From: Microcoleus sp.
Lineage (GTDB): Bacteria; Cyanobacteriota; Cyanobacteriia; Cyanobacteriales; Microcoleaceae
Reading direction: 5' to 3'
NCBI GenBank assembly: GCA_042408215.1
Contig: JAYFMW010000006.1
Span: forward strand, 96,001 to 160,000
Length of the DNA stretch: 64,000 nucleotides
Position 1 is the stretch's first letter. Every line of letters starts with the position of its first letter. Shown piece after piece: positions 3,585 to 16,604 of this stretch. The position numbers were made by a program, and so were the translations under genes. A model generated the notes under the pieces. It did no database searches. It was given only the letters and a program-made list of their open reading frames with translations, and was not told the DNA's origin.

Positions 3585-3956
3585 TCAGTAGACCATCTGT
3601 TTTGACTCTATTTCTAGCAAGCGCAGCAGTCTTTCATCGCCTCTGGCTTTGGCGGCTTGCAGTCGGCGATCGAGAATATTGCAGATATTGGCCCGGTGGA
3701 CTTTCACTATATCCTCAACTGTTAGAGCTGATCTCACCGCTGCTACATTCTCATCGGCTTTTGGAGTTCGGTTGGTGCAATCGGGCCGATCGCGATCGCG
3801 TTGCTGCCAATCTTGGGCTTGTTCAGGGCCCCGAAGGTGTCTGGGATAACGATAGTTCCAGTTGTGACCCCGATATTTGCCCGCGACTTCACCTTCGATC
3901 AGATCGACTGTGGGAATGTCGTAGTCGTAGTTAGAACCGCGATAAGAGAGTTTCAT
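3585..3956 (-). CDS. DUF4278 family protein
   Basis: MKLSYRG..Y and GKYRG motifs; C-terminal LDRRLQAAKARGDERLLRLLE. Confidence 0.8.
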   Translation of the reverse strand: MKLSYRGSNYDYDIPTVDLIEGEVAGKYRGHNWNYRYPRHLRGPEQAQDWQQRDRDRPDCTNRTPKADENVAAVRSALTVEDIVKVHRANICNILDRRLQAAKARGDERLLRLLEIESKQMVY

Positions 3957-4105
3957 ATTTTTTGCTCCTGATATTTATCTAAAAATGGTAGTCTGGTCAG
4001 GCCAGATTTTGCCTGGTAAAAACGTTTTAGTTTCTGTATTATATTTTACCATTTGTTTAAATAACCAGGCCAGTTAAAAAAATTAATATTTAGAGGGAGA
4101 CGGCA

Positions 4106-4131
4106 GGAAAAAACCCGCCAGAGCGGGTTTA
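4106..4131 (-). terminator. Intrinsic terminator downstream of the BON gene
   Basis: Minus strand aaacccgc-tctg-gcgggttt hairpin followed by a T run. Confidence 0.65.
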
Positions 4132-4222
4132 GAGGGTGAAGCTGAGGGTAGAAGTCGCACAAGCACCGATGAGAGTTGCACTCCAAACGAGTTGGGTGAG
4201 GGACTCCCACGCTCCCCAGCAA

Positions 4223-4567
4223 CTAGCCGACTGTCACCTGATCGGTTTCCACGCCAGTTGCGCCCTCTTCAGCAGAGGCGATCGCCACCAACTTGTCGAG
4301 AATTTCCTGGCTGGGAACCTGGCCCTTGAGAACCACAGTACCGCTGAGTTGAGCCACCCATACAGTTTCAATATCAGCAACTTCTGAATCGCCGTCAAAA
4401 GCCAAAGCAACGCGCTTCGCCAGGCCGCTTTGATCAAAATTACCGTCAGGGCCCACTTTCGCAGGAGCAATTGATTGCGACTCCGCCGCCTGTTGCACTA
4501 CTTGTGCCATCGCTTGTGCCTGGGGTTCAGGCTTTTCGAGTCCGAATAGTCTTTGAAACCAACCCAT
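4223..4567 (-). CDS. BON-domain (phospholipid-binding) protein
   Basis: DQSGLAKRVALAFD...VVLKGQVPS...GATGVETDQV; likely start MGWFQRLFG. Confidence 0.85.
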   Translation of the reverse strand: MGWFQRLFGLEKPEPQAQAMAQVVQQAAESQSIAPAKVGPDGNFDQSGLAKRVALAFDGDSEVADIETVWVAQLSGTVVLKGQVPSQEILDKLVAIASAEEGATGVETDQVTVG

Positions 4568-4740
4568 CGTAGTAGATTCTCCTGACAATACACTTTTTAC
4601 AAGATAGCTCTAGAATTCCCAAAGACTGGTAATTGTTGCAAAACTCAGTGAAATTTCTGAAAATGTTTGGCCGTCAGGCTTTGATAATTCTTGAATCTCG
4701 AATCTTAAATCTCCTATGGTATTGTAAAACTTCATTAAGA

Positions 4741-4769
4741 TTGTAAGCATCAATAGACAATGGTAGTAT
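4741..4769 (+). promoter_or_regulatory. Sigma70-type promoter
   Basis: TTGTAA-N17-TAGTAT with an extended TG motif. Confidence 0.6.
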
Positions 4770-4774
4770 CATAT

Positions 4775-4985
4775 AGTCAGAAGGGTCGATTGATTAACGC
4801 CGATGTTAACGGGTCTTACAATATTATGCGAAAAGCAATCCCAAATGCCTTGTGCAATGGGATAGAGAGCTGCGTAGTTCAGCCTTAGAAGGGTCAATCC
4901 GCTCGAAGTGAAAGCGAAAGGGGAGGGACTTCATGCCTCCCACGGCACTGTAATAAATGACTATACTTTTACCAGCTATGTTGAT
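4775..4985 (+). ncRNA. Orphan tnpB 3'-end remnant, putative omegaRNA scaffold plus guide
   Basis: 4775-4888 translates as SQKGRLINADVNGSYNIMRKAIPNALCNGIESCVVQP* (TnpB RuvC-III C-terminus) with no upstream tnpB body; several hairpins follow; 3' boundary approximate. Confidence 0.55.
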
Positions 4986-5130
4986 GTGGCTATTTTATGT
5001 AGGGGACACCTAGTACCAGTCATCGACCTGTGCCAAATGATACAGGGGAGGCGGGCCAGCGCTTATATCAATTCCGGTTGCACCGGAATGATATACTGAA
5101 AGAGCATCAAGAATGCAATGAGGACAATTT

Positions 5131-6209
5131 ATGCCTAAACGCCTAAAGTTGGAACCCCATCAAACCCCGTCGGAGTTGTCTAAACTTGATCGTCAAGCAT
5201 CGGACCCAATTGAACGGACACGCTACCAAATAATTTGGCTCTTAGCAACTGGACGAGTTACTGAAGATGTCGCTTCGGTCACAGGTTACTGCCGTAACTC
5301 GATATACCGCTTAGTCCGTCGTTACAATCAATTAGGTGCTAATGGTTTGAAAGACAAACGTCATCAACATCCGGGTACTCAACCTTTACTCTCTGTTGTA
5401 GAACAAGCACAACTTTTGCAAACTTTACAAGCTCCTCCCGCTGATGGAGGATTATGGAACAGTCGTAAAGTTGCTGAGTGGATGAGTAATTTACTTGACC
5501 GTCGAGTTAGCGTACAAAGGGGTTGGGACTATCTACGCTCCTTGGAGTTTCGGTTACGGATACCCAGACCGGAACATGACCTCGCTGACCTTGAGGTCCA
5601 AGAAGCTTGGAAAAAAAACTACGAGCGCAAGCTAAACGAATTCAAAATCAGCATCCATTAGTAGCAGTAGAAGTATGGGGAATGGATGAGCATCGTCTGG
5701 GATTAAAGCCCATAATTCGGCGAGTCTGGGTAGGGTATGGGGAGCAGCCCATAGCCAACGTAAATTGGCGCTATCAATGGCTATGGTTATATGGTTTTGT
5801 ACACCCGTCAACGGGAGAAACATACTTTTGGATTCTCCCAAAAGTTAACATTGAGCTTTTTAACTTAGTTTTAGAAGACTTTGCCAGAGAATTTGGAGTA
5901 GGTAAAGATCAACACATCATCTTAGCTATTGACCAAGCTGGATGGCATACCAGTCCACAAGTTAGAGTCCCAGAAGGTCTACACTTGGAATTTCTGCCCT
6001 CCCATTCTCCCGAATTACAACCAGCAGAGCGTCTATGGCCGTTGGTAAATGAACCAATTGCCAATCGCTCATTTCAAAATCTTGATGAACTAGAGGAAGT
6101 GCTATTTCAGCGCTGTCAAGCTCTTCTCAAGCAACCTTCTTTGATTAAAGGGATTGCTTGTTTCCATTGGTGGCCAAAAACCAAAGCCATATCATTCCGG
6201 TGCAGTTAG
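5131..6209 (+). CDS. IS630 transposase, two ORFs joined by a -1 programmed frameshift
   Basis: HTH ORF 5131-5661 and DDE ORF 5607-6209 (MDEHR, DQAGWH, PAERLW); A8 slippery run at WKK, 5611-5618. Confidence 0.92.
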
Positions 6210-6982
6210 AGAGTCGATGGCAGAGTGTCCCCCACCATCTCTCCTACAAAACCGTGCTTGCGACTTTCACCGCACACGGCTCCTGAGTGATGTAATCCTG
6301 GTTATGGATACAGTACGATCGCATCACGAGATGATTTATACCGCTTGATAGTTTTCCTTTTACCCCTACATCCCACCATCAGATTTTTCTGTGGCATTAG
6401 GCTTTTAAAGGGTTACTCAGTCTCAATCTTTTACACCACCAGGCGCTGTCAGCAGATCTCTGCTATTACAGCAGAGCTTTAGCTTCTGCAACCATCCCTC
6501 ACACTCACAGCTTACGGCTAGCAACCTACTTATTTTTAAGGGCTGTGAGAGCTTTACTTCGTTCCGATTACACATTGGTTGAACATGACAGCGTAATGCT
6601 TTCCACCGGGTTTTTTGGGCAGTGCTGATAAGTCAATCCGATAATTGCTTATGCCCTATCCTTGCCTTTTGGCTTGGTCTATCAGCCATTTGACCATCTA
6701 TCATAACGGTGGTTCAGACACATTTTTGCTTTCGCTACGCATATGTTCTGGCTCGACAGCTACTCCATTTGGCTAAGAGTCTTTCTGCCTTTTATCCCCG
6801 CTTTATCCTGTTAGTTGCTACCTAACAAAATAGGGGATATGCTTTTACCGCTGCACCTGCGGACTGGGACTTGACTTAACGTCTCACCCAGAAGTGTAAT
6901 CAGTTATCACTAACTCGCAGCGGAGTCAGGCTAACCGTCCCTGGATAGGAGAACCTATCCATTTAGGCTAAACGAATCGCAC
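6205..6982 (-). ncRNA. ORF-less group II intron (778 nt, probably IIB)
   Basis: Minus strand starts GTGCG at 6982 and ends AAC at 6205; domain V gagccgtgtgcggtgaaagtcgcaagcacggttt (AGC triad, GAAA loop) at 6249-6282, then domain VI; removal restores the IS TIR exactly. Confidence 0.93.
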
Positions 6983-7145
6983 ACCGGAATTGATATTAGA
7001 TGCTCTATATGTAGCAGGACTTTAAGAAATTGGTATTACTCCGAGGGGGGTTCAGCCCCTGTAGGGGCTAGAAAATGTCTAATGCCCGTTAAGATGCCTT
7101 TATCTAAAAGGGTGGTTAGTCTAATACGGGCAGAGAGGTCAAAAT

Positions 7146-7357
7146 GTAAGGATTCAGGTCACTGAACTCCTTGCTGGGCAAAGACTTTAGATATGGAGCT
7201 TGATACTAAATCAATCTCTATTCTCAATAAACCACGAAAAACTGTCACTTCTCCTCGTTTATTGACAATAAACACGAAAGACAAAAACCCTTATTTTGCC
7301 CTAAAACCCTTGCCAGACAAGCGTTGGAGCCGCAAGTTTTTAGACCTGAATCCTTAC
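7146..7357. mobile_element. MITE with 15-bp terminal inverted repeats
   Basis: gtaaggattcaggtc ... gacctgaatccttac, with no ORF inside. Confidence 0.7.
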
Positions 7358-7698
7358 GCGCTAAGTTAAGCGCGATACGGCTGATGCCACGCTTAATCAC
7401 AACTATCTACAGCATAATTGTGTAGTAACTGATACTGAAAAGCATAATTCTGCCAAATTGGCAACATGGTCTAGTTAAAAAGGCTTTTAATGATTTTAGA
7501 TAGCCAGACTTATATGTCTAAGTATGTAGGCGGGATTAAACCGAACTACACTACGTAATAGTATATAAACATGGCTAAATCACCTACGTTGTAGAAATTG
7601 AATACTTTAGGCGATCAAAATCCCCTCCAATTTATTCTTAGATGGATGAATTTAAGTTCATAAATCAAGTATTGTTAGTTTTCTAAAAGGAGAGATGA

Positions 7699-8772
7699 AT
7701 GACTGCTCAGATTTTAGATCTTGATTCTCAGTATGTGTTGAATTATTGCACTAAATACCTTGCCAGAGAAAACATAGATTTCAGACATAATTTTGGACAG
7801 TTTGGGAGTGAAGATCCTAGAAGCCATATCGCTGAATCCTGGCGATTTCCCATTATTGATGCCTACAGTGACGGTATAAATTTTACTGCCAATTATGAGT
7901 TCAACCGAGTTACTTTTGTTTATCAAAAACGAAGTGACACATCACCTAAAAGTATTGGGTTGATTGGCACATTTACTACGCTTTATGAACCTATCCCCCT
8001 CAAGTCCGTACAGTTTTTTGGAGAAGATACCGGATACTATGCATTAACGGTTGTTGTGCCCAAAGCCGAAGTTCATCTTTACCAATACCTTATCGATAAT
8101 CAACCAACCCTAGACCCAATTAATCCTCAACAAGTGAGCCTCGATAACGGAAAACCTTGGTCGCGATTTTTTACCCAACTTTGTACCCAGCCCCTCAGCT
8201 TTGAAGATTGGGAATTTGAGATTTTAGAACGACTTATCGATCACATCTTACCGTTTCGGACAGAGGAAGGTGAGAATTTTCTCAGTCGCTACTATCAGTC
8301 TCTAGATCGACAAGCTAAAGAATTACAGTATGCCTATGCCTATCGGTTAGACCAATCAGTAGGTGCAGTTAACTTTATCGACAATATTCTTGCCAGAGAA
8401 GAAAATCATCATTTACTGGATTACAAGCTTTGTTTAATGCAAATTGATCGTATTCTGCGGCAACGTAACCCCTATATCGATCCTGCAAAAATGTCAAAAG
8501 AGCTATACATCGATCTGTATAACGAAATGGCTACCGATAGAGTAAATGGATGGAAGTATGACCAGTACGGCAGTCCACTTTACTTTTTGCAACTACTACG
8601 TCGTCACACTTATACGGGCGCATTCTCTCATCCCAAGTATGGAGGGAATGTAGGTGGATCTGGCTGGGCTTATCTATCCGAACGCTATCGAGATGCTCAA
8701 GGGCAAACCCTGTTTGATTGGCGCAAAGCGATCGAGCAACCTTTGGGAATCAATGCTGACTATCACGGTTGA
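7699..8772 (+). CDS. Fusion of a CBM48/AMPK-beta-like glycogen-binding domain and a gluconate 2-dehydrogenase subunit 3-like domain
   Basis: GLIGTF...YYALTVVVP...YQYLIDNQPTLDPINP (E-set/CBM48 pattern); C-terminal GAFSHPKYGGNVGGSGW; AAAGGAGAG RBS. Confidence 0.7.
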   Translation: MTAQILDLDSQYVLNYCTKYLARENIDFRHNFGQFGSEDPRSHIAESWRFPIIDAYSDGINFTANYEFNRVTFVYQKRSDTSPKSIGLIGTFTTLYEPIPLKSVQFFGEDTGYYALTVVVPKAEVHLYQYLIDNQPTLDPINPQQVSLDNGKPWSRFFTQLCTQPLSFEDWEFEILERLIDHILPFRTEEGENFLSRYYQSLDRQAKELQYAYAYRLDQSVGAVNFIDNILAREENHHLLDYKLCLMQIDRILRQRNPYIDPAKMSKELYIDLYNEMATDRVNGWKYDQYGSPLYFLQLLRRHTYTGAFSHPKYGGNVGGSGWAYLSERYRDAQGQTLFDWRKAIEQPLGINADYHG

Positions 8773-8795
8773 TTGACGATTTTTAGGAGTCTTGT

Positions 8796-10640
8796 ATGCA
8801 AATTCAGTTTGATGTAGTGATTATTGGTAGTGGGGCAGGCGGTTCACCCATTGCTCATACGTTGGTGAAAGCGGGCAAATCAGTTCTTATTTTGGAAAAG
8901 GGGCCGTTGTTTAAACCGCAATATCAAACAGCAGATGGCTTGAGTGACTTTAAGCGAGATGAATTATTTGCCGATGGACCAGAAAAGCGAATTCAGTTTA
9001 AAAGCGTCGCCAACTACAACGAATCGTTTTACTCTAGTCATGTCGAGCCGGATATTAATGACGAGCCTCATATTTATCGTGGAGCTGATGGGCGAGATCG
9101 CGCCACGATTGAGGGTTATACCGCTCAAGTTGTTGGCGGTGGGACTCAGCTGTATGGAGGGGTATCGCTGCGATTTACGCCAACCGATCTGCGGCTGCAA
9201 AGTTTTAACGCAGGACGTACAGATTTGAAAGAAGATCCTAATGGAGATGTGCAGAGAGAGGCACGGGATTGGCCTGTGAGTTATGACGAGCTAGAACCCT
9301 ACTATGTAAAAGCAGAAGCCTTAGTAGGGCTAAATGGCACTGTTGAAAATCAGCTCAAGCCCTTTAGTCAAGACAGTTATCAGCCACCTCTGACTCCTAA
9401 CCCGATTAGCAGCTATGCCAAAACGGGGATGGAACAACTCGGTGCAGACCTAGGGAAGGGCAAGCCGATTAAGCCTTATCGGACACCACTAGCCGTGATT
9501 ACTCGCGATCATCCTCCCAGTGGACGCAAGGTGCCCGAGGATTTTGAGACACTCAAAACCAGTTATGTGAATCGATTTGGTTGTCCTTTAGGAGTCAAGT
9601 CGAACACCTGGGTATCCTTACTCAGTCCGATCGCCAATCAACCAAATTTTGAAATCCGCGCCAACTGCGTGGTGACCCATCTAAGTTGTCAGGGATCTCA
9701 GGTAAATCGAGTGTTCTACCGCGATCCTAGTGGTAAGGAGCGATTTGTTGAGGGCAAGGTGGTGGTGGTGGCCTGCTCGGCGATCGAATCAATCCGCTTG
9801 CTCAAGCTATCAGCACAGCTTAGTCCAGATTTTGATCGGCGCATCAATCAAAACGACTTGTTAGGAAAGCATTTTCTCACCCACTGTTTTGGCGGTGCTA
9901 GTGCGCTGATGCCTACCCGTAGCGATAAATCTCAGGCACTAGATGCAGACTGGGCGATCGATTGTTGTGCCACAGAAGGTTTTCTCAAAGATATGGGGCT
10001 GTGGGCTGGGGGGGCAATCTACAACAACACCTCCGACCAAGCTCTACCCATTTCGCTCGCACGAACCCAAGGTGCTCAAGATTTAGACACACTCTGGAAA
10101 GGCTTTATTGGTAACACAAGCTTAACTGGTCAAGCATTAGTAGACTTTTTGGATAAGCAAATCGGCAGGGGTTTATCCGTGAGTTTTATGGCTAATCAGG
10201 TGCCTCTTAAAACGAATCGGATCGAATTACATCCTTCCATTCAGGATAAATGGGGTCGTCCGGTAGCTTACATCATCAAGGAGTGGCACAGTCACGATCG
10301 CTACTTGATGGACACATTAGCCAAACAGTGCGGTCAAGTCCTGAAACTGGGTGGCGAAGGTATCGCGGGTGAGTTTCCGTTTGAGTTTTTAGGCGGAGGT
10401 GGGGTGTACCAAGCCGAGAATGCCCTAGCTCGAATTGCTAACCATATTTTAGGTGGAGCAAGGTTTGGGATTGATCGCAATGACTCGGTGCTCGATCGCA
10501 ACTGTCGAGCTTGGGATTTTGATAATCTCTACGTCACTGATGGATCGTTTATGCCCACATCTGGGGGCGCGAACCCCACTCTGACTATTCAGGCTAATGC
10601 TTTTCGCGTTGCAGACCAGATATTAACTGCCTTACCCTAA
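8796..10640 (+). CDS. GMC family FAD oxidoreductase
   Basis: IIGSGAGG FAD motif; VGGGTQLYGG; catalytic NHILGGAR and GANPTLT. Confidence 0.93.
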   Translation: MQIQFDVVIIGSGAGGSPIAHTLVKAGKSVLILEKGPLFKPQYQTADGLSDFKRDELFADGPEKRIQFKSVANYNESFYSSHVEPDINDEPHIYRGADGRDRATIEGYTAQVVGGGTQLYGGVSLRFTPTDLRLQSFNAGRTDLKEDPNGDVQREARDWPVSYDELEPYYVKAEALVGLNGTVENQLKPFSQDSYQPPLTPNPISSYAKTGMEQLGADLGKGKPIKPYRTPLAVITRDHPPSGRKVPEDFETLKTSYVNRFGCPLGVKSNTWVSLLSPIANQPNFEIRANCVVTHLSCQGSQVNRVFYRDPSGKERFVEGKVVVVACSAIESIRLLKLSAQLSPDFDRRINQNDLLGKHFLTHCFGGASALMPTRSDKSQALDADWAIDCCATEGFLKDMGLWAGGAIYNNTSDQALPISLARTQGAQDLDTLWKGFIGNTSLTGQALVDFLDKQIGRGLSVSFMANQVPLKTNRIELHPSIQDKWGRPVAYIIKEWHSHDRYLMDTLAKQCGQVLKLGGEGIAGEFPFEFLGGGGVYQAENALARIANHILGGARFGIDRNDSVLDRNCRAWDFDNLYVTDGSFMPTSGGANPTLTIQANAFRVADQILTALP

Positions 10641-10658
10641 ACCAAAGGAGATAAACTC

Positions 10659-11825
10659 ATGGATATAGCTAATCAGAAGATTGCCGATGGTAAGTTTAAT
10701 GATCGATTCACCGCGCCTTGGAATGAAATTTTTAAGGTCGTTTTTTTCCCAGACCGAATTTATCATGCGGAATATCTGAATGCAACCCGAAGTGCTCGCT
10801 ATCGTTATAACGTGCAGGAAGTTAGAAACTACCTAGATATTAATGTTATTAAGGGAGAAGTTTACCTAGACGGGCAATTTCTCACTAACTTTCTGCGATT
10901 GGAATATACATCGAAACGTCTTGTCGAGCAGGCTCGTGGAAAAAATCGGTTTATCAAGAACAGTGTAATTGCCTGGGTTAAATTGCTACCCATCAACTCT
11001 CAGAATATCGCTGAAGCTAGGGTAAAACTTAACTATTGCCCTTGGATTGATGCCTACCAAGTTGAAATTTGGGAGACTTTAGAGCCTCCAGGGACTACCC
11101 ACCACGATTTCCAAATTTTGGATCAAATGGGACGCGAAGGGTCAATTACGCGAGTAGGGGCATTTAATCCTGCACTGCGTGCAGTTAAGGCGATCAAGCA
11201 GGTAGAACTAGCGTTTAGAGAAAATGATCGGAATTTGCCCACTGGGTATCCAGTTAGCGATGACCAAGCTTGCTGGGACAATGCCTACTTGCGATCGCAC
11301 CAGGAGCCACGCACCCAAGACCCTAGCTCTTCCCAAAATACCATCTTGGATCAAAACTACCTGATCGATTTCCAGCGAGGTTGGTTTTTACAGGCATCAG
11401 ATATTTTACCCGTACGTTACCGCAATGCGATGATGGACGACACTAACCCTGACATCAAGGATGACAACATCATTGAAATGCGATGGATTATACAGCGAGA
11501 ATTGGGTGGTTCAAATATCTTTTTCCATGAGGTCACTATTCCACCAGGCACAGTAGAAGGAACTCATCAGCATATCGGTACCGAAGAACTCTACTACATC
11601 ACTCAAGGCGAGGGGATTGCATACATGCGTGTTGGTGACGATCCTGCTACAGATTCTTTCCCAACCGTCACTCGGAATGTTATGGGACTGGGCGAACGCG
11701 ACTTTAAAAAGCTTCCGGTCAAGGCAGGGAGTGTCATTTTCACTAAAAGCGGCGGAATGCATGGTATCAGCAATCCTGGTACCGAACCACTGAAATTTGT
11801 AGCGTTTTTGTATCACACTTCTTGA
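10659..11825 (+). CDS. Protein with C-terminal cupin and uncharacterised N-terminal domain
   Basis: GTHQHIGTEELYYITQGEG ... GMHGISN metal-binding cupin motifs. Confidence 0.8.
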   Translation: MDIANQKIADGKFNDRFTAPWNEIFKVVFFPDRIYHAEYLNATRSARYRYNVQEVRNYLDINVIKGEVYLDGQFLTNFLRLEYTSKRLVEQARGKNRFIKNSVIAWVKLLPINSQNIAEARVKLNYCPWIDAYQVEIWETLEPPGTTHHDFQILDQMGREGSITRVGAFNPALRAVKAIKQVELAFRENDRNLPTGYPVSDDQACWDNAYLRSHQEPRTQDPSSSQNTILDQNYLIDFQRGWFLQASDILPVRYRNAMMDDTNPDIKDDNIIEMRWIIQRELGGSNIFFHEVTIPPGTVEGTHQHIGTEELYYITQGEGIAYMRVGDDPATDSFPTVTRNVMGLGERDFKKLPVKAGSVIFTKSGGMHGISNPGTEPLKFVAFLYHTS

Positions 11826-11855
11826 CCTTATTTTCCCTTTTTACCAAGAATTACC

Positions 11856-13106
11856 ATGTTTATAGTTCACTCTGATAATGTCTTTAAAGTTGAACCAAAT
11901 ACTTCCCCAGACTACAACCGAAGTAATCCATTAATGAAACTTCTGGGACTGCTCGAAAAAGCACAACTTGCTGCCCAACGAGACTTTTACCTTGCCGATC
12001 AACTTCAGTATCTCTTTCCTTTTAAATCCCTGATTTCGTGGGGACCTCAGGGATTAGACGCTGATAATCTAACTCCTGAAAAGCAGGATAACAAAAACGA
12101 TTTTCAAAAGCAAAACGTCAAGGATTTTGAGACCACCGATACTGTGTTAATTCGGGGATTGGTCAACGTTGGTGGCTGGACGGGACCTTTTTTGCGCGTC
12201 TCCTATCGAGGCGGTCCCGATTCTAAACTTTCGGTGGCAGCTAACCACCAGCTTGGGGAAAGTATCAAACTCTTCATTAAGATTGCTGGAGTACCATCAA
12301 CCACCCTGATTACGGTGCCCTACAATCCACTTAGCGCTCGCTATGAAGTTGAATTCTGGGGCTACCCTGGTAACGACCTTAGAAGTCAGCTTGATGGGAA
12401 AAGCCTAATAGCCTTTGATCGAGGTGAACTCCAAGTACGAACAGATTTAGTCCATGGAAGCATTTCAGACTTTAGTCGAGAAAAACTTGATGGGCGTACA
12501 ATGGTCGAAGTTTCCCCTACTAATACCATGCATCCGGTTCTCCCTCTGCATATTGAGCTTGCTTGGACTACCACAGATACAAAAGTATGGGACTCGCAAG
12601 ACAGTGCTAATTACCACTATGAATTTAATATGATTTTAAGGGGGTGGGAACACTTTTTAGGAACAGGCATTAGTCCTAATCCTCATGGTGGCATTGGTTT
12701 TCTAGAATATCGTAACCTAATGTCTAACTACTTTCAGCATGCCAAAAATAATGAACTGGGACGACCACTTAACCCTTGGAGCTTCAATGCTTTTGGCTCA
12801 AAGAACCATGGTAATGGCTTCGAGCCATTTTTTGCAGTGGATTATATGGATATCCATCTACTAAAGGGTAACTGTGGAATTGGATTACACCGCCACCGCG
12901 ATAACCAAGAAGTATTTTTGATGATGGAAGGGAAGGGATTTATGGTGATCGGAGATTGGTGCAAGATGCCCGAACGCGAGCGTTGTTTTGAAATCAGAAC
13001 CCTTCGGTCTGGACATTTTGCCATGTTGAAGGGTGGCAATCTCCATGCCCTCATGAATGCAACGGATGAAGATATTTCTCTGTTCATGTTTGGAGGGTAT
13101 GACTAA
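11856..13106 (+). CDS. Second protein with C-terminal cupin and uncharacterised N-terminal domain
   Basis: IGLHRHRDNQEVFLMMEGKG ... GNLHALMN. Confidence 0.8.
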   Translation: MFIVHSDNVFKVEPNTSPDYNRSNPLMKLLGLLEKAQLAAQRDFYLADQLQYLFPFKSLISWGPQGLDADNLTPEKQDNKNDFQKQNVKDFETTDTVLIRGLVNVGGWTGPFLRVSYRGGPDSKLSVAANHQLGESIKLFIKIAGVPSTTLITVPYNPLSARYEVEFWGYPGNDLRSQLDGKSLIAFDRGELQVRTDLVHGSISDFSREKLDGRTMVEVSPTNTMHPVLPLHIELAWTTTDTKVWDSQDSANYHYEFNMILRGWEHFLGTGISPNPHGGIGFLEYRNLMSNYFQHAKNNELGRPLNPWSFNAFGSKNHGNGFEPFFAVDYMDIHLLKGNCGIGLHRHRDNQEVFLMMEGKGFMVIGDWCKMPERERCFEIRTLRSGHFAMLKGGNLHALMNATDEDISLFMFGGYD

Positions 13107-13185
13107 GCGAATTCATGTACAAATTGGACTCAGACTTTGAAACAGTGAGAGTCATTTACTAATTGCAAATAGAGAGGTATTTATT

Positions 13186-15006
13186 GTGGCTTCTTCTCAG
13201 TCCGGTATGGGAGCAATCCCTTTTTCAGGTGGTGTGGCATTTCGTGTCTGGGCACCTAACGTCGATGGTGTTAGTGTTGCAGGTGACTTTAACGGTTGGT
13301 CTTCTTCAGCTCACTCGTTAGACTCGGAAGGTAATGGATTCTGGTCTGCTGATGTACCTGTGGCAAAAATAGACCAGCAGTATAAGTTTGTTATTCATGA
13401 GGGAACTAACCCACCGATCTTTAAAAATGATCCCTATGCTAGAGATGTTGTCAGTTCAGTCGGCAACTCGATTATTGTTGATTTGAACTTTAACTGGTTA
13501 CCCACCAGTTTTTCGATGCCAACATGGAATGAATTGATTATCTATGAAATGCATGTGGGTACTTTTAATGATGATATTGACCCTGGGTTAGGAACTTTTC
13601 GGAGTATTAAGGCTAAGCTGCCTGATTTGCAGGCACTTGGAATCAATGCCATTCATGTGATGCCAGCAGCGGAGTTCCCTGGCGATTTGTCTTGGGGATA
13701 TAATCCATCCCATCCCTTTGCGATCGAGAGCGTGTTTGGTCCACCTAAAGACCTTAAGGAATTTGTCCAAACTGCTCATGATTTTGGAATTGCCATAATT
13801 ATGGATGTGGTTTTTAACCACTTCGGTGGTAATGATCTTGATTTGTGGCGATTTACAAGTTGGAACCAGAATGATAAAGGAGGCATTTACTTCTACAACG
13901 ATCGTCGAGATTTTACGCCTTGGGGACCTCGCCCCGATTACGGACGTGGAGAAGTACGCCAATACATCCGGGATAATGTTTGGATGTGGCTAGAAGAATA
14001 TCGTTGTGATGGACTGCGTTTTGATGCGACTGCCTTTATCCGCAATATTTTTGGCAACAATAATGATCCTGCCAATGATATCCCTGAAGGCTGGAACTTG
14101 ATGCAATGGCTTAACGATGAGATTAATTCTCGGCAATCTTGGAAAATTACAATTGCAGAAGACATAAGAAATAATGATTGGATCACTAAGGATGTAGGAG
14201 CAGGGGGAGCCGGCTTTGATGCCCAATGGGCAACAGAATTTGTCCGACCAATTAGAGATACACTTACCACCCCCAACGATCAAGATCGAAATATGTTTGC
14301 TGTTCGAGATGCCATTTATCATCGCTATGGCACGGATGCTTTTGAGCGAATCATTTATACTGAATCTCATGATGAAGTCGCTCGTTCGCTGAATCTACAA
14401 GAAAGACCCGACCATTATCGACTTCCAGAAGCAATCTGGCGAGGTCATGCAGATAGTTGGTTTGCTAGAAAGCGTTCAACTCTTGGGACTGCATTACTTT
14501 TTACAACTCCAGGAATCCCCATGATTTTTCAAGGGCAGGAGCTTTTAGAATGGGGAAGCTGGGATGATAAAACCCCCTTAGATTGGAGCAAAAAAAACCG
14601 ATTTAGTGGAATTTGGGATCTCTATCAGGCACTAATTCGCTTACGGCGTAACTGGTTTAACAATACTCGTGGACTTCGTGGCCAACATGTAAACGTATAC
14701 CATGTCAACAATAACGATAAAGTTATTGCTTTCCATCGTTGGGAAAATGGTGGACCGGGCGATGATGTAATTGTGGTGCTGAATTTTAGCGATCGCAATT
14801 ATAGCAGCTATACGATTGGATTCCCTCGGGGTGGAACTTGGTATATTCGTTTTAATAGCGATTGGCAAGGTTTTAGCTCAGACTTCGGAAACTTCCCAGG
14901 CTATAACACTACAGCCGATAGAGCAATATGGGGAGACACTGATGGATTAACTTTTGCAGGTAATGTAGGAATTGGTGCTTATAGTGCTCTTATACTTTCC
15001 CAGTAA
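13186..15006 (+). CDS. GH13 alpha-amylase-family enzyme with N-terminal CBM48 (branching enzyme/TreZ-like)
   Basis: FRVWAP..VSVAGDFNGW; catalytic DGLRFDA, IAED and SHDE intact; GTG start after an AGAGGT RBS. Confidence 0.9.
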   Translation: MASSQSGMGAIPFSGGVAFRVWAPNVDGVSVAGDFNGWSSSAHSLDSEGNGFWSADVPVAKIDQQYKFVIHEGTNPPIFKNDPYARDVVSSVGNSIIVDLNFNWLPTSFSMPTWNELIIYEMHVGTFNDDIDPGLGTFRSIKAKLPDLQALGINAIHVMPAAEFPGDLSWGYNPSHPFAIESVFGPPKDLKEFVQTAHDFGIAIIMDVVFNHFGGNDLDLWRFTSWNQNDKGGIYFYNDRRDFTPWGPRPDYGRGEVRQYIRDNVWMWLEEYRCDGLRFDATAFIRNIFGNNNDPANDIPEGWNLMQWLNDEINSRQSWKITIAEDIRNNDWITKDVGAGGAGFDAQWATEFVRPIRDTLTTPNDQDRNMFAVRDAIYHRYGTDAFERIIYTESHDEVARSLNLQERPDHYRLPEAIWRGHADSWFARKRSTLGTALLFTTPGIPMIFQGQELLEWGSWDDKTPLDWSKKNRFSGIWDLYQALIRLRRNWFNNTRGLRGQHVNVYHVNNNDKVIAFHRWENGGPGDDVIVVLNFSDRNYSSYTIGFPRGGTWYIRFNSDWQGFSSDFGNFPGYNTTADRAIWGDTDGLTFAGNVGIGAYSALILSQ

Positions 15007-15078
15007 TCCAATGAAACGGATAATCAAACAAATTCGGGAAATTGCCGCAAGCTAACCAGGCGTTGGAGCCGACCGATG

Positions 15079-15213
15079 ATATCAAATCCGGTAGCATCGG
15101 AATTAATATTACCCACAGCCAGGGACAAGACAGTCGTGTCCCTACAATTAATCGCGGTAGGGACACGACTGCCTTGTCACTCTATATTATTCCGGTGCAA
15201 CCGGAATTGATAT
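15079..15213. mobile_element. MITE with IS630-like TIRs
   Basis: atatcaaatccggtagcatcggaattaatat ... atattattccggtgcaaccggaattgatat match the TIR at 5065. Confidence 0.85.
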
Positions 15214-15291
15214 TACTCGATCGCGCGAATTGTTCTAGTCAAAAAATGATTGTCCGATCGCGCCGATCATTCCCCGGACTTGAGATCAACC

Positions 15292-16581
15292 CTACAAAAC
15301 CTTTGTCAAGTCTTGATAATATCGATCGGCTTCCGACCAATTCATTTTAAGTAACAATTCATCTCCCCATTGCAGTTTGAGACTAGGCTTGATTGCTTCC
15401 ACACCCAAAGCACGAATAATCTCGCTACCCACAGCTTTCGCCAATAGCGGCGGCACAGAATTTCCAACTTGTCGAAATCCATGCCATTTTGTGCGGTGAA
15501 ATCTGAACCAATCAGGGTAAGAATGCAGCCGCGCGGCTTCCCTGACAGTGATGCAGCGAGGTGTTTGCGGGTGAATTGGTCTGGGAGAAGTAAAAGCGCC
15601 TCTACCCCTGTCAGTTCCGGCTCTGAGAGTGTTGCAAACTCCTTCAGGATGCAGCTTGTAAAAACGACTGATCGGCTCCTTTTCGCCCTGTGGAGTAGCA
15701 GCAAACCTTGCCATACATTCGGGGGAGTGTTGGGTTCGCCAACTTGAGGTGAGGATGCGTCGATCGAATTCTCGATCGTAAGAATAATCATCATCCAAGT
15801 AGTCAATTTGGCGCAGGATACTGGCGTAACTGCTGGACTTTCCGTACTCGGCAATTATCGAATCCCCGTACAATAACTCGCTATAGTTGTCCACTTCTGG
15901 CAAATCTCCAATGGCATCCCAAACTGTCGGGACCGCAGGTAAATTAGGAGCTTTTTTAGGGCGTTTTAAAATTTTAGTTTTTGCCTTCGCTCTGGGTAAG
16001 AAAGTAATGGGCTGAGGGTATTTTGGCAACTCATATTTTTTCTTGCATCCTATGAGAAATAATCTTTTGCGAGCTTGGGGTACTCCGTAGTGAGCGGCGT
16101 TGAGAACCTGATATTTTTCTTCTACTTGATAGCCGGATTCTAGAAAAGAGCTAATTAAAATATTGAGTAGTTGTTTATGTTCTCCTGCTGTGATTCCCGG
16201 CACATTTTCCATTACAAAAAACTTGGGTTTTAGTTCCAAAACCAAGCGGTGAAAGTGAAAAATCAGAGAATTTCGCGGGTCATCCACATCGCGCTTGCCC
16301 ATCAGTGAAAATCCTTGACAGGGCGAACCGCTGATTACTACGTCTATTTCGCGCCTGCCGATCGCCGAATTTTTCCGAATTTCCGAGCCGGTAAGCAGTG
16401 CCACATCTTTACACAAAATAGAACACATCGGGAAATTAAACTCGTGGGTAGCACAGTGAATTGGGTCAATTTCAACAGAAGCAAGTACATCAAAACCTGC
16501 TTGTTCAAAGCCCAGAGTCATGCCGCCGGCACCAGCAAATAAATCAACAGCGATCGGTCGCTTTTTCCGATTGCTTGACAT
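15292..16581 (-). CDS. DNA (cytosine-5) methyltransferase, orphan
   Basis: DLFAGAGG, SPCQGFS, ENVPG, QARKR and QVGNSVPP motifs. Confidence 0.93.
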   Translation of the reverse strand: MSSNRKKRPIAVDLFAGAGGMTLGFEQAGFDVLASVEIDPIHCATHEFNFPMCSILCKDVALLTGSEIRKNSAIGRREIDVVISGSPCQGFSLMGKRDVDDPRNSLIFHFHRLVLELKPKFFVMENVPGITAGEHKQLLNILISSFLESGYQVEEKYQVLNAAHYGVPQARKRLFLIGCKKKYELPKYPQPITFLPRAKAKTKILKRPKKAPNLPAVPTVWDAIGDLPEVDNYSELLYGDSIIAEYGKSSSYASILRQIDYLDDDYSYDREFDRRILTSSWRTQHSPECMARFAATPQGEKEPISRFYKLHPEGVCNTLRAGTDRGRGAFTSPRPIHPQTPRCITVREAARLHSYPDWFRFHRTKWHGFRQVGNSVPPLLAKAVGSEIIRALGVEAIKPSLKLQWGDELLLKMNWSEADRYYQDLTKVL

Positions 16582-16604
16582 AACCTTTTATCACTAAATA
16601 TATT

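What the first reader, a model, noticed from the sequence alone, without database searches (positions are those of the whole stretch)
7699..15006. Five-gene operon suggesting an undescribed cytoplasmic glycogen/alpha-glucan oxidation pathway
Seen: co-oriented genes with 18-79 bp gaps encode a CBM48-like/Gad3-like fusion, a GMC oxidoreductase (His/Asn pair), two large cupins with intact metal motifs and a CBM48-GH13 with intact catalytic triad; none has an obvious signal peptide. Known: GMC plus gluconate-2-dehydrogenase subunit 3 pairs form sugar/glycoside dehydrogenases that make keto-sugars; in fungi, pyranose oxidase plus the cupin-containing aldos-2-ulose dehydratase yields pyranone metabolites. 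Inference: glucan-derived sugars are released or remodelled, oxidised at the granule and converted by the cupins, for redox-based glycogen turnover or a sugar-derived metabolite. I do not recognise this as a characterised pathway.
Basis: partly seen in the sequence, partly recalled or inferred. Interest (0 to 1): 0.82.

Follow-up and report, generated by a model that had tools for sequence, protein, structure and literature searches.

The report
Mobile glycogen-linked flavoenzyme and cupin cassette
A horizontally acquired five-gene operon in this cyanobacterium pairs a sugar-oxidising flavoenzyme and two unusual metal-binding cupin proteins with a glycogen-type glucanase; the first four genes recur in the same order in at least ten bacterial phyla, and together they likely encode an undescribed, untested oxidative way of processing storage glucan.

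Summary
Five co-oriented ORFs (7699-15006, gaps 23/18/30/79 nt) encode a PF13618 small subunit with an AMPK-beta/CBM48-like N-domain, a GMC flavoprotein, two paralogous cupins and a CBM48-GH13.

New here:
- The conserved unit is the first four genes. They lie in the same order and strand in 68 of 69 sufficiently long loci from 10 phyla.
- The GH13 partner is swapped among at least six GH13 lineages, including true GlgX (45 of 62 intact loci).
- A PIG3/quinone-oxidoreductase-class reductase is a second recurrent accessory.
- The GMC keeps FAD and His/Asn motifs but lacks the 3Fe-4S cysteines, covalent-FAD histidine, Tat signal and cytochrome partner of its closest solved relatives.
- Both cupins keep 3His-1Glu sites, and a complex model supports a heterodimer (0.86 vs 0.00).
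- In this genome the cassette sits in a ~10.6 kb insertion with IS630 and a group II intron remnant. It was not found in the same-genus genomes searched.

Best reading: a cytoplasmic glucan oxidation step followed by cupin-catalysed enolisation or elimination. The chemistry is untested.

Seven full-text searches found no description. The scan noted the same cassette earlier on another genome (e1-7089457).

The parts
7699..8772 (+). g1: small subunit (357 aa). It has a conserved N-terminal region with an AMPK-beta/CBM48-like beta-sandwich (about residues 70-160) and a Gluconate_2-dh3 (PF13618) domain at residues 174-324. There is no Tat signal.
8796..10640 (+). g2: GMC-family FAD flavoprotein (614 aa). 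The GxGxxG motif sits at residues 11-16 and the catalytic pair is His550/Asn593. It lacks the 3Fe-4S cysteine cluster and the covalent-FAD histidine of BcGDH.
10659..11825 (+). g3 (cupin A, 388 aa): an N-terminal beta-rich domain plus a C-terminal cupin (about residues 241-388). Metal ligands are H303, H305, E309 and H368.
11856..13106 (+). g4 (cupin B, 416 aa), a paralogue of g3: an N-terminal CBM-like beta-sandwich (about residues 50-257) plus a C-terminal cupin. Metal ligands are H345, H347, E352 and H397.
13186..15006 (+). g5: CBM48-GH13 enzyme (606 aa, GTG start) that sits between the GlgB and TreZ models. Catalytic residues are D280, E325 and D396. It is specific to the cassette in this genus.
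4700..15315 (.). Inserted island of about 10.6 kb relative to a same-genus genome. It carries IS630, a group II intron remnant, a non-coding leader and the five-gene cassette.
   Evidence: In G418 the homologues of window 15315-16588 and of window 3592-4699 lie about 430 bp apart.
5131..6209 (+). IS630-family transposase in two overlapping ORFs (5131-5661 and 5607-6209).
6208..6284 (-). 3' end of a group II intron (domains 5/6).
   Evidence: RF00029, 59.4 bits (gathering score 40), E 5.5e-10

Best explanation
The cassette likely encodes a cytoplasmic enzyme set that oxidises glucosyl residues of storage alpha-glucan and then converts the keto-sugar with a metal-cupin heterodimer. This would be an oxidative-eliminative route beside hydrolysis and phosphorolysis.

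Shown by the calls or the sequence:
- g1 to g4 form a fixed four-gene unit across 10 phyla.
- g2 is a GMC flavoprotein with intact FAD and His/Asn motifs, next to a PF13618 small subunit.
- None of the five proteins has an export signal.
- g3 and g4 are paralogues with complete 3His-1Glu sites.
- A CBM48-GH13 enzyme of varying lineage is the usual neighbour.
- In this genome the cassette is an inserted island.

Inferred:
(1) g1 and g2 would form a heterodimer like the gamma-alpha pair of FAD-glucose dehydrogenase. The Tat leader would be replaced by a glucan-targeting module.
(2) The GH13 partner would debranch or trim glycogen to expose chain ends or release maltooligosaccharides.
(3) g2 would oxidise a sugar hydroxyl, most likely C3 or C2. 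It would pass electrons to O2 or a soluble acceptor, or return them later, because it has no Fe-S or cytochrome route.
(4) The g3-g4 heterodimer would enolise the keto-sugar at its metal site and isomerise it or beta-eliminate the glycosidic bond, giving an enone-type product.
(5) In lineages that carry a PIG3/quinone-oxidoreductase-class reductase, that enzyme would reduce the product.
For: Fixed four-gene core:
- 68 of 69 loci with at least 5.7 kb of room keep g1-g2-g3-g4 in order on one strand. The loci come from 151 relatives found in 185,579 species genomes, of which 80 were kept.
- Median identity to the window proteins is 57-68%.

Glucan link:
- 45 of 62 intact-core loci have a CBM48-GH13 neighbour, 44 of them on the same strand.
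- The neighbours belong to at least six lineages that are 24-31% identical to g5. They include a true GlgX (722 bits against a cut-off of 640.9).
- Other glucan genes nearby: a GT4 glgA_Coryne-like gene in Nostoc, GlgC near Methylomonas lenta, and GH57 in a planctomycete.

g2 and its partner:
- The closest solved relatives of g2 are the BcGDH alpha subunit (E 7.5e-35) and the fructose dehydrogenase large subunit. Both work with a PF13618-type subunit (PMC6719666, passages read).
- H550 and N593 are kept in 75 of 75 family members.

Cupins:
- The 3His-1Glu sites are invariant.
- g3 and g4 are paralogues.
- The complex model supports binding: score 0.86, best of 3 controls 0.00. That mark was reached by 116 of 157 solved complexes and 2 of 215 mismatched pairs. 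The runs share at least 97% of contacts and the partner pLDDT is at least 86. My own alignments were used, so the counts hold only roughly.
- Structural neighbours of the cupin domains include enzymes that act next to a sugar carbonyl: KdgF (Z 13.0, rmsd 1.9, 103 aligned), cupin PMI and PGI, and RmlC-like 3-epimerases and 3,4-ketoisomerases (Z about 7-8).
- The g4 N-domain resembles CBM-type sandwiches: rice isoamylase N-domain Z 7.5, CBM56 Z 7.4, CBM25 Z 6.3. These Z values are middling.

Independent GMC-cupin coupling: a distant single-copy relative of the cupins lies head to head with a GMC gene in 2 of 2 metagenome loci.

Reductase accessory: PIG3-class MDR reductases flank the core in Nostocales, several actinobacterial lineages, L044 and L075. 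They are only 26-29% identical between lineages.

Chemical precedent: C3 oxidation of a glycoside by an FAD GMC enzyme leads to elimination of the aglycone (PMC4650693, abstract and introduction read).

Expression: contigs from RNA libraries of 3 studies cover the operon and bridge all four gene junctions.
Against: - No enzyme of the cassette has been assayed. Substrate, oxidised position, electron acceptor and product are all inferred.
- The g1 N-domain matches AMPK-beta CBMs only at E 0.03, and the two Trp of that domain are not conserved in the alignment. Glucan binding is therefore unproven.
- 17 of 62 intact-core loci show no GH13 in the flanks held. Several of these have long flanks: L004, L033, L038 and L039.
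- The closest solved relative of g2 oxidises C1 of glucose, not a ring hydroxyl.
- Known 3-keto-glycoside lyases are TIM-barrel proteins, not cupins (recalled, not tested here).
- The fold matches of the cupin domains are generic to the superfamily. The best match, TM1287 (Z 16.2), has no known function.
- The outgroup GMC-cupin pair has no glucan gene in the flanks held.
- The window's own island carries no reductase gene.
Confidence: 0.45

Rival explanations
1. Reducing-end oxidation. The GH13 partner would release linear maltooligosaccharides. g1-g2 would oxidise their reducing-end C1 to aldonolactones or aldonic acids, as FAD-glucose dehydrogenase does. The cupins would then process the aldonate end.
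For: - The closest solved relative of g2 is the BcGDH alpha subunit (E 7.5e-35). That it oxidises C1 is recalled, not tested here.
- The partners are debranching or TreZ/GlgB-like enzymes that create or handle free chains.
Against: - Relatives in this clade oxidise many different positions: fructose C5, gluconate C2, glycoside C3 (recalled).
- There is no obvious role for two metal cupins with CBM-like domains on an aldonate.
- No lactonase or gluconate kinase recurs in the flanks.
Confidence: 0.15
2. Biosynthesis rather than catabolism. The cassette would turn glucan-derived sugar into a small pyranone or enone metabolite (an antioxidant, signal or antibiotic), or would install keto groups on a specialised glucan.
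For: - The distribution is patchy and mobile, like accessory metabolism: 5 of 401 cyanobacterial genomes, and an island with IS630.
- Nostoc loci add a GT4 glucan-synthase-like gene and a branching-enzyme-like g5 upstream.
- Reductases of the enone/quinone class are frequent neighbours.
Against: - No exporter, regulator or tailoring enzymes recur with the core.
- The partner in most non-cyanobacterial loci is a catabolic GlgX-type debranching enzyme.
Confidence: 0.2
3. Oxidase plus oxidative-cleavage cupin. g1-g2 would act as an oxidase that supplies H2O2 or electrons. The cupin metal centres would then cleave alpha-glucan oxidatively, as GMC enzymes assist LPMOs and as the cupin cellulose oxidative enzyme works.
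For: - g2 has lost the Fe-S route to a cytochrome, which is compatible with an oxidase.
- All named carriers belong to aerobic lineages.
- A cupin 'cellulose oxidative enzyme' (9bwf) is among the structural neighbours of g3 (Z 11.1, rmsd 2.0, 103 aligned).
Against: - The 9bwf match does not stand above dozens of unrelated cupins.
- Making H2O2 in the cytoplasm and using copper there would be unusual.
- A 3His-1Glu site fits Mn, Fe, Ni or Zn isomerases and lyases equally well.
Confidence: 0.1
4. The link to glucan is incidental. The four-gene core would act on another sugar or polyol, and the GH13 genes would be neighbours for unrelated reasons.
For: - 17 of 62 intact loci have no GH13 in the flanks held.
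- The outgroup GMC-cupin pair has no glucan gene nearby.
- The CBM-like assignments are weak.
Against: - Six different CBM48-GH13 lineages were recruited to the same position on the same strand in several phyla. Chance does not explain this well.
- g5 arrived with the cassette and has no orthologue in 40 same-genus genomes.
Confidence: 0.1

Closest known systems
Membrane-associated FAD-dependent sugar dehydrogenase complexes (B. cepacia FAD-glucose dehydrogenase gamma-alpha-beta; Gluconobacter fructose dehydrogenase)
   Same: - GMC-type catalytic subunit with a His/Asn pair.
- Encoded next to a PF13618 small subunit.
- Best solved matches to g2 (E 7.5e-35 and 9.2e-28).
   Different: - No Tat signal (0 of 79 g1 orthologues).
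- The small subunit carries a large extra N-terminal region.
- The 3Fe-4S cysteines are absent: one position is Cys in only 26 of 75 members.
- The covalent-FAD His is replaced by Leu (against PMC6719666).
- No cytochrome c gene was seen in the window's flanks or in the 72 neighbour ORFs of 14 loci that were scanned.
FAD glycoside oxidoreductase / glycoside 3-dehydrogenase with oxidation-elimination deglycosylation (Rhizobium sp. GIN611 FAD-GO; 3-keto-glycoside pathways)
   Same: A GMC flavoenzyme oxidises a ring hydroxyl of a glycoside. The keto group then permits beta-elimination of the glycosidic bond (PMC4650693). This is the chemistry proposed here.
   Different: - Those enzymes are periplasmic and act on small glycosides.
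- The follow-up enzymes, where known, are TIM-barrel lyases and hydratases (recalled), not cupins.
- No sequence comparison with a characterised G3DH could be made here.
Fungal pyranose 2-oxidase with aldos-2-ulose dehydratase, and the anhydrofructose pathway of glycogen/starch breakdown
   Same: The concept is the same: a glucan-derived sugar is taken through a keto-sugar to enone or pyranone products with the help of metal cupin domains (recalled).
   Different: - g2 is not a pyranose oxidase (54 bits against a cut-off of 545).
- The cupin N-domains model as beta-sandwiches.
- No GH31 glucan lyase is present in the cassette.
KdgF and cupin-type sugar isomerases/epimerases (PMI, PGI, RmlC-like 3-epimerases, 3,4-ketoisomerases)
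   Same: The fold and metal-site type of the C-terminal domains match (KdgF Z 13.0 to g3; WbcA Z 8.0 to g4). These enzymes work by enolisation next to a sugar carbonyl (recalled).
   Different: - g3 and g4 carry 240-320-residue N-terminal domains that were not found in any other context. The g4 profile finds only 234 representatives at E <= 0.001 among 1.84 billion proteins, mostly fragments.
- They are predicted to act as a heterodimer.

Membership tests
FAD-dependent dehydrogenase complex (BcGDH / FDH type) | [quoted passage not shown] | tested here: met
   GxGxxG, H550 and N593 are kept in 75 of 75 members.
FAD-dependent dehydrogenase complex (BcGDH / FDH type) | Adjacent small subunit of the Gluconate_2-dh3 family (PF13618) | tested here: met
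   32.6 bits against a cut-off of 23.4, residues 174-324 of g1.
FAD-dependent dehydrogenase complex (BcGDH / FDH type) | Tat signal on the small 'hitchhiker' subunit (periplasmic export) | tested here: not met
   0 of 79 g1 orthologues have an RRx-hydrophobic motif in the first 60 residues, and there is no hydrophobic N-terminus.
FAD-dependent dehydrogenase complex (BcGDH / FDH type) | Cysteine cluster that binds a 3Fe-4S centre (Cys212/218/222 of BcGDH) | tested here: not met
   only the Cys222-equivalent position aligns, and it is Cys in 26 of 75 members and Asp in 48 of 75.
FAD-dependent dehydrogenase complex (BcGDH / FDH type) | Multihaem cytochrome c subunit gene in the operon | tested here: not met
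   no cytochrome c domain was found in the window's flanking ORFs or in 72 neighbour ORFs from 14 diverse loci. No such family recurs.
Glycoside 3-dehydrogenase / FAD glycoside oxidoreductase | Oxidation of C3-OH of a glycoside | not testable with these tools
   This needs an enzyme assay and product NMR or MS.
Pyranose 2-oxidase | Match to the curated equivalog model TIGR02462 above its cut-off | tested here: not met
   54.3 bits against a cut-off of 544.9, and only the C-terminal 66 residues match.
Cupin superfamily, metal-dependent | Double-stranded beta-helix fold with the two-motif 3His-1Glu site | tested here: met
Aldos-2-ulose dehydratase (fungal AUDH) | Beta-propeller dehydratase domain joined to cupin domains (architecture recalled) | tested here: inconclusive
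   the N-domains model as beta-sandwiches and no AUDH chain appears in the lists. The lists are dominated by the cupin domain, and the N-domains were not folded alone.
GH13 1,4-alpha-glucan branching enzyme (GlgB) | Score above the curated GlgB equivalog cut-offs | tested here: not met
   248.9 bits against a cut-off of 577 (PRK12313).
GH13 malto-oligosyltrehalose trehalohydrolase (TreZ) | Score above the curated TreZ cut-off | tested here: not met
   242.3 bits against a cut-off of 538.8.
GH13 (alpha-amylase family) in general | Catalytic Asp/Glu/Asp in the conserved regions, with a CBM48 N-domain | tested here: met
   D280, E325 and D396 are kept in 16 of 16. The motif definitions are recalled.
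CBM48 / AMPK-beta glycogen-binding module (g1 N-domain) | Significant profile match and conserved sugar-stacking aromatic residues | tested here: inconclusive
   - In the window protein PF16561 and CBM_48 are below E 0.01.
- PF16561 is precomputed on many relatives.
- The profile search hits AMPK-beta CBMs at E 0.03, and the two Trp are not conserved.
- Binding itself is not testable here.

The most novel reading that the evidence does not exclude
Bacteria from at least ten phyla share a mobile cassette for a third way of breaking storage glucan, beside hydrolysis and phosphorolysis. A glycogen-tethered cytoplasmic flavoenzyme oxidises glucosyl residues. A dedicated hetero-dimeric metal cupin, a protein family found only in this context, then cleaves the chain by elimination and releases an enone sugar.
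Probability: 0.3. Interest if true: 0.9.

Novelty: new variant of a known kind. Interest (0 to 1): 0.78.

Why it matters
Glycogen turnover in bacteria is textbook chemistry: phosphorylase, debranching enzyme and amylomaltase. This cassette is tightly conserved, horizontally mobile, and appears in RNA libraries from natural communities. It joins a sugar-oxidising flavoenzyme to glucan enzymes, which points to an undescribed branch of storage-carbon metabolism. The carriers include ecologically important aerobes: Nostoc and other cyanobacteria, nitrifiers, methanotrophs, soil Acidobacteriota, Chloroflexota and Streptomyces.

It also offers:
- a soluble, cytochrome-free and Fe-S-free relative of the biosensor enzyme FAD-glucose dehydrogenase;
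- a new two-domain cupin family with a predicted composite heterodimer;
- possibly a route to keto- or enone-sugars from starch-like polymers.

The hypothesis can be tested directly with four or five recombinant proteins.

Tried and rejected
- Literature. Seven full-text searches found no paper on this gene set. PMC13118837 looked promising, but the passages read concern other cupins. Subscription journals are not in the library.
- Foldseek against the PDB matched only the C-terminal cupin domains.
- VIA-align wide for g3 was filled by cupin matches, so its N-domain remains unsearched.
- The ESM Atlas search with g3 gave only generic small cupins at scores of 0.85 or less.
- A search for fused forms of g3 found one 794-aa protein, P0121. 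It reads as a frameshift-ridden merge, not a real fusion.
- hhalign of the g1 family against the g4 family showed no relation (2.6%).
- PADLOC gave no defence-system match for g1 to g4.
- Rfam found no riboswitch or leader RNA upstream of g1. The promoter and terminator scans were at chance level.
Transcription is therefore only suggested.
- A search for the distant cupin P0170 in 401 Actinomycetota genomes found only the g4 of the centre genome.


Full report
WHAT IS THERE

The window holds five co-oriented ORFs at 7699-8772 (g1, 357 aa), 8796-10640 (g2, 614 aa), 10659-11825 (g3, 388 aa), 11856-13106 (g4, 416 aa) and 13186-15006 (g5, 606 aa, GTG start). The gaps are 23, 18, 30 and 79 nt.

Pfam results:
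- g1: Gluconate_2-dh3 at residues 174-324 (32.6 bits, cut-off 23.4).
- g2: GMC_oxred_N and GMC_oxred_C plus an N-terminal FAD Rossmann motif.
- g3: Cupin_2 (40.7 bits).
- g4: a sub-threshold Cupin_2 (18.6 bits).
- g5: CBM_48 + Alpha-amylase + Alpha-amylase_C.

NCBIfam names none of g1, g3 or g4. It places g2 far below every curated GMC equivalog (best is pyranose oxidase, 54 bits against 545). It places g5 midway between GlgB (249 against 577) and TreZ (242 against 539).

None of the five proteins has a hydrophobic N-terminus or a transmembrane segment. None of 79 g1 orthologues has a Tat-like motif.

THE CONSERVED UNIT IS FOUR GENES

A search with g1 found 838 relatives at E <= 0.001. The best 120 are 56-92% identical. 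Source names include Scytonema, Aphanothece, Limnoraphis, Nitrosomonas communis, Nitrospira, Blastocatellia, Rhodospirillales and Methylomonas.

A scan of one genome per species found 151 loci, of which 80 were kept. By record title they come from Cyanobacteriota (22), Actinomycetota (24), Acidobacteriota (12), Pseudomonadota (9), Chloroflexota (4), Bacillota (2), Planctomycetota (2), Nitrospirota, Verrucomicrobiota and Myxococcota (1 each), and 2 are unclassified.

In 68 of the 69 loci with at least 5.7 kb after the g1 start, g1-g2-g3-g4 follow each other on one strand. Median apparent gaps are 15-28 nt. The exception, L017, has lost g2 and half of g3. The other 11 loci are cut by contig ends. 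Median identities to the window proteins are 57% (g1), 68% (g2), 64% (g3) and 62% (g4).

THE FIFTH GENE IS SWAPPABLE BUT IS NEARLY ALWAYS A CBM48-GH13

Of 62 loci with four intact core ORFs, 45 have a GH13 gene in the flanks held, and 44 of these are on the core's strand. The types are:
- a g5-type enzyme, downstream in 6 loci and upstream in 9 Nostocales loci;
- an actinobacterial type that passes the curated GlgX model (722 bits against 640.9; 18 loci);
- a second GlgX-like type (622 bits; 8 loci);
- three further types, represented by L041, L049 and L080.

These types are only 24-31% identical to g5.

Seventeen loci show no GH13. Some of them have short flanks and two keep g5 fragments. L004, L033, L038 and L039 have long flanks and still show none.

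Other glucan genes nearby are a GT4 glgA_Coryne-like transferase (13 loci, mostly Nostoc), GlgC (Methylomonas lenta) and GH57 (a planctomycete).

A second recurrent accessory is an MDR reductase whose best model is the PIG3/quinone-oxidoreductase subfamily. It lies:
- upstream on the same strand in Nostocales and L044;
- after GlgX in five uncultured actinomycete loci;
- divergent in Streptomyces;
- downstream in L075.

These reductases share only 26-29% identity between lineages. The window's own island has none.

THE FLAVOENZYME

The closest solved relatives of g2 are the catalytic subunits of B. cepacia FAD-glucose dehydrogenase (E 7.5e-35) and Gluconobacter fructose dehydrogenase (E 9e-28). 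In those enzymes a PF13618-type 'hitchhiker' subunit with a Tat signal carries the flavoprotein to the periplasm. A 3Fe-4S cluster on Cys212/218/222 passes electrons to a multihaem cytochrome, and FAD is bound covalently to His105 (PMC6719666, passages read).

In the g2 family:
- The FAD motif, His550 and Asn593 are invariant (75 of 75).
- The only aligned cluster position is Cys in 26 and Asp in 48 of 75.
- The His105 position is Leu or Ile.

No cytochrome c gene was seen beside the core.

g1 has a strongly conserved 170-residue N-terminal region in place of a Tat leader. Part of it (about residues 83-144) aligns weakly with the AMPK-beta glycogen-binding module (E 0.03; 9 of 13 hits), but the two Trp of that module are not kept. 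Many relatives carry a precomputed PF16561 hit.

The g1-g2 pair therefore looks like a soluble, cytoplasmic offshoot of the dehydrogenase complexes with a different electron outlet. The heterodimer itself is inferred by homology and was not modelled.

THE CUPINS

g3 and g4 are paralogues over about 283 columns, covering both the N-domain and the cupin (hhalign 96.6%, E 5e-10). Both keep a full 3His-1Glu site: g3 H303/H305/E309/H368 in 69 of 69; g4 H345/H347/E352 in 67 of 67 and H397 in 66 of 67.

The AlphaFold models are confident (pLDDT 86.7 and 87.3).

Fold comparisons of the g3 cupin:
- TM1287: Z 16.2, rmsd 1.5, 113 aligned, 35% identity, function unknown.
- KdgF: Z 13.0, rmsd 1.9, 103 aligned.
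- Then TM1459, cupin sugar-phosphate isomerases and PMI.

Fold comparisons of g4:
- The cupin gives middling matches (Z 7-8) to RmlC-like epimerases, 3,4-ketoisomerases, KdgF, PGI and PMI.
- The N-domain (about residues 50-257) resembles CBM-type sandwiches: rice isoamylase N-domain Z 7.5, rmsd 3.2, 98 aligned; CBM56 Z 7.4; CBM25 Z 6.3. These values are in the range that can reflect only a common arrangement.

A complex prediction supports a g3-g4 heterodimer:
- Score 0.86, best of 3 controls 0.00.
- The mark was reached by 116 of 157 solved complexes and 2 of 215 mismatched pairs.
- The runs share at least 97% of contacts and the partner pLDDT is at least 86.
- My own alignments were used, so the counts hold only roughly.

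The modelled interface places the g3 loop at residues 148-152, which includes the invariant His149-Asp150, against g4 residues 360-362 and 400-405 beside the g4 metal ligands. This hints at a composite site.

The family is small and self-contained. The g4 profile finds 234 representatives at E <= 0.001 (67 at <= 1e-30) among 1.84 billion, and most are fragments.

One distant full-length relative (P0170) has about 28% identity to g4. It lies head to head with a GMC gene in both metagenome loci found (L090 and L091). That GMC is 25% identical to g2 over its whole length and still has a Cys-rich cluster and the His-Trp at the covalent-FAD position. The coupling of a GMC enzyme with this cupin type is therefore older than the glucan-linked cassette.

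THE CASSETTE IS AN ISLAND HERE, AND MOBILE IN GENERAL

- g3 was found in 5 of 401 cyanobacterial genomes sampled, the window's own included. It was found in none of 19 other genomes of the same genus.
- None of 40 same-genus genomes has a g5 orthologue; the best hits are 31-40% identical housekeeping GH13s. The own genome has only paralogues of at most 37% identity.
- In a complete same-genus genome the homologues of window 15315-16588 (dcm) and window 3592-4699 lie about 430 bp apart. Window ~4700-15315 is therefore an insertion.
- The insertion also carries an IS630 transposase in two ORFs and the 3' end of a group II intron (RF00029, 59.4 bits).
- In a FastTree of g2 the window groups inside a clade of 17 Nostocales sequences (support 99). 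Acidobacteriota and Pseudomonadota each need 5-6 changes. A Rhodospirillales MAG sits next to an acidobacterial MAG; this is either transfer or a binning error.
- With the distant query P0170, which detects g4 at about 1e-26, no other of 400 Actinomycetota genomes gave a match.

EXPRESSION

Six RNA-library runs from four studies hold 20-49% of the operon's sampled words. Four runs from three studies were laid. Their contigs (95-100% identical) cover 27, 24, 12 and 17 of 30 bins.

Contigs bridge each gene junction:
- g1/g2: X14 record 3, X15 record 10.
- g2/g3: X15 record 12.
- g3/g4: X15 record 13.
- g4/g5: X14 record 5, X16 record 18.

This is suggestive only.

HOW IT MOST LIKELY WORKS

Shown:
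- the gene order and its conservation;
- the intact catalytic motifs;
- the loss of the export and Fe-S features;
- the paralogy of the cupins;
- the recurrent GH13 and reductase partners;
- the insertion.

Inferred:
- g1-g2 would sit on glycogen or its debranched chains, and the GH13 partner would expose the substrate.
- g2 would oxidise a ring hydroxyl.
- The g3-g4 metal site would enolise the keto-sugar and isomerise it or eliminate the glycosidic bond.
- A PIG3-class reductase, where present, would reduce an enone product.

The precedent for the chemistry is the FAD glycoside oxidoreductase of Rhizobium sp. GIN611, where C3 oxidation leads to elimination of the aglycone (PMC4650693, abstract and introduction).

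I put this at about 0.45. The rivals are:
- reducing-end C1 oxidation (0.15);
- a biosynthetic role (0.2);
- an oxidase-plus-oxidative-cupin mechanism (0.1);
- an incidental glucan link (0.1).

COMPARISON AND NOVELTY

The parts belong to known superfamilies. The assembly was not found in seven full-text searches. It consists of:
- a cytoplasmic GMC enzyme free of Fe-S and cytochrome;
- a CBM-like 'hitchhiker' subunit;
- a dedicated heterodimeric two-domain cupin;
- a swappable CBM48-GH13.

The scan had already noted the same cassette, with GlgX, on another genome (e1-7089457). My results agree with that note and add:
- the loss of the Fe-S and covalent-FAD features;
- the heterodimer model;
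- the outgroup GMC-cupin pair;
- the reductase accessory;
- the island boundaries;
- the RNA-library cover.

I rate it a new variant of a known kind, namely keto-sugar oxidation-elimination chemistry and FAD sugar dehydrogenases. Interest is high because it is widespread, testable and touches central storage metabolism.

Noticed in passing
window 6208-6284 (- strand), probably extending to about 6980: The 3' end (domains 5/6) of a group II intron (RF00029, 59.4 bits) directly abuts the end of the IS630 transposase ORF. No intron ORF of 80 aa or more lies in 6210-7698, so it may be an ORF-less or decayed intron.
   Followed up: partly
window 5131-6209: The IS630-family transposase is split into two overlapping ORFs (5131-5661 and 5607-6209). 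This is either a frameshifted copy or a case of programmed frameshifting.
   Followed up: no
window 15076-15217 (g5-dcm intergenic): Many RNA-library contigs break here with loose ends on both sides. Summed contig depth jumps to 140 in X14 and 419 in X17. This suggests a dispersed repeat or an abundant small RNA shared with other places or organisms (tables 2 and 7).
   Followed up: no
L090 5791-9134 and L091 3-2358 (metagenome loci): A distant single-copy relative of the g3/g4 cupins lies head to head with a GMC oxidoreductase. That GMC still has the Cys-rich Fe-S-type motif and the His at the covalent-FAD position. In L090 a 1062-aa CARDB-domain protein follows. This may be an ancestral or parallel GMC-cupin pair without glucan genes.
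   Followed up: partly
L017, L007, L008 (Nostoc loci): There are signs of decay. L017 has lost g2 and half of g3. L007 and L008 keep only about 15% of the g5-type gene and truncated reductase genes.
   Followed up: no
L031 (Rhodospirillales MAG) and L035 (Acidobacteriota MAG): Their GMC genes are almost identical (branch lengths 0.013 and 0.029) although the MAGs are assigned to different phyla. This is either very recent transfer or a binning error.
   Followed up: no
Nostoc loci L005-L017, about 350-1100 nt downstream of g4: A cyanophycinase-like S51 peptidase gene (104 bits, cut-off 126.6) follows the core on the same strand in 12 Nostoc loci. It is absent from the window.
   Followed up: no
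window 15292-16581 (- strand): A type II C5-cytosine DNA methyltransferase lies next to the island. No restriction enzyme gene was seen beside it. It is conserved at the same place in a same-genus genome, so it is not part of the insertion.
   Followed up: partly
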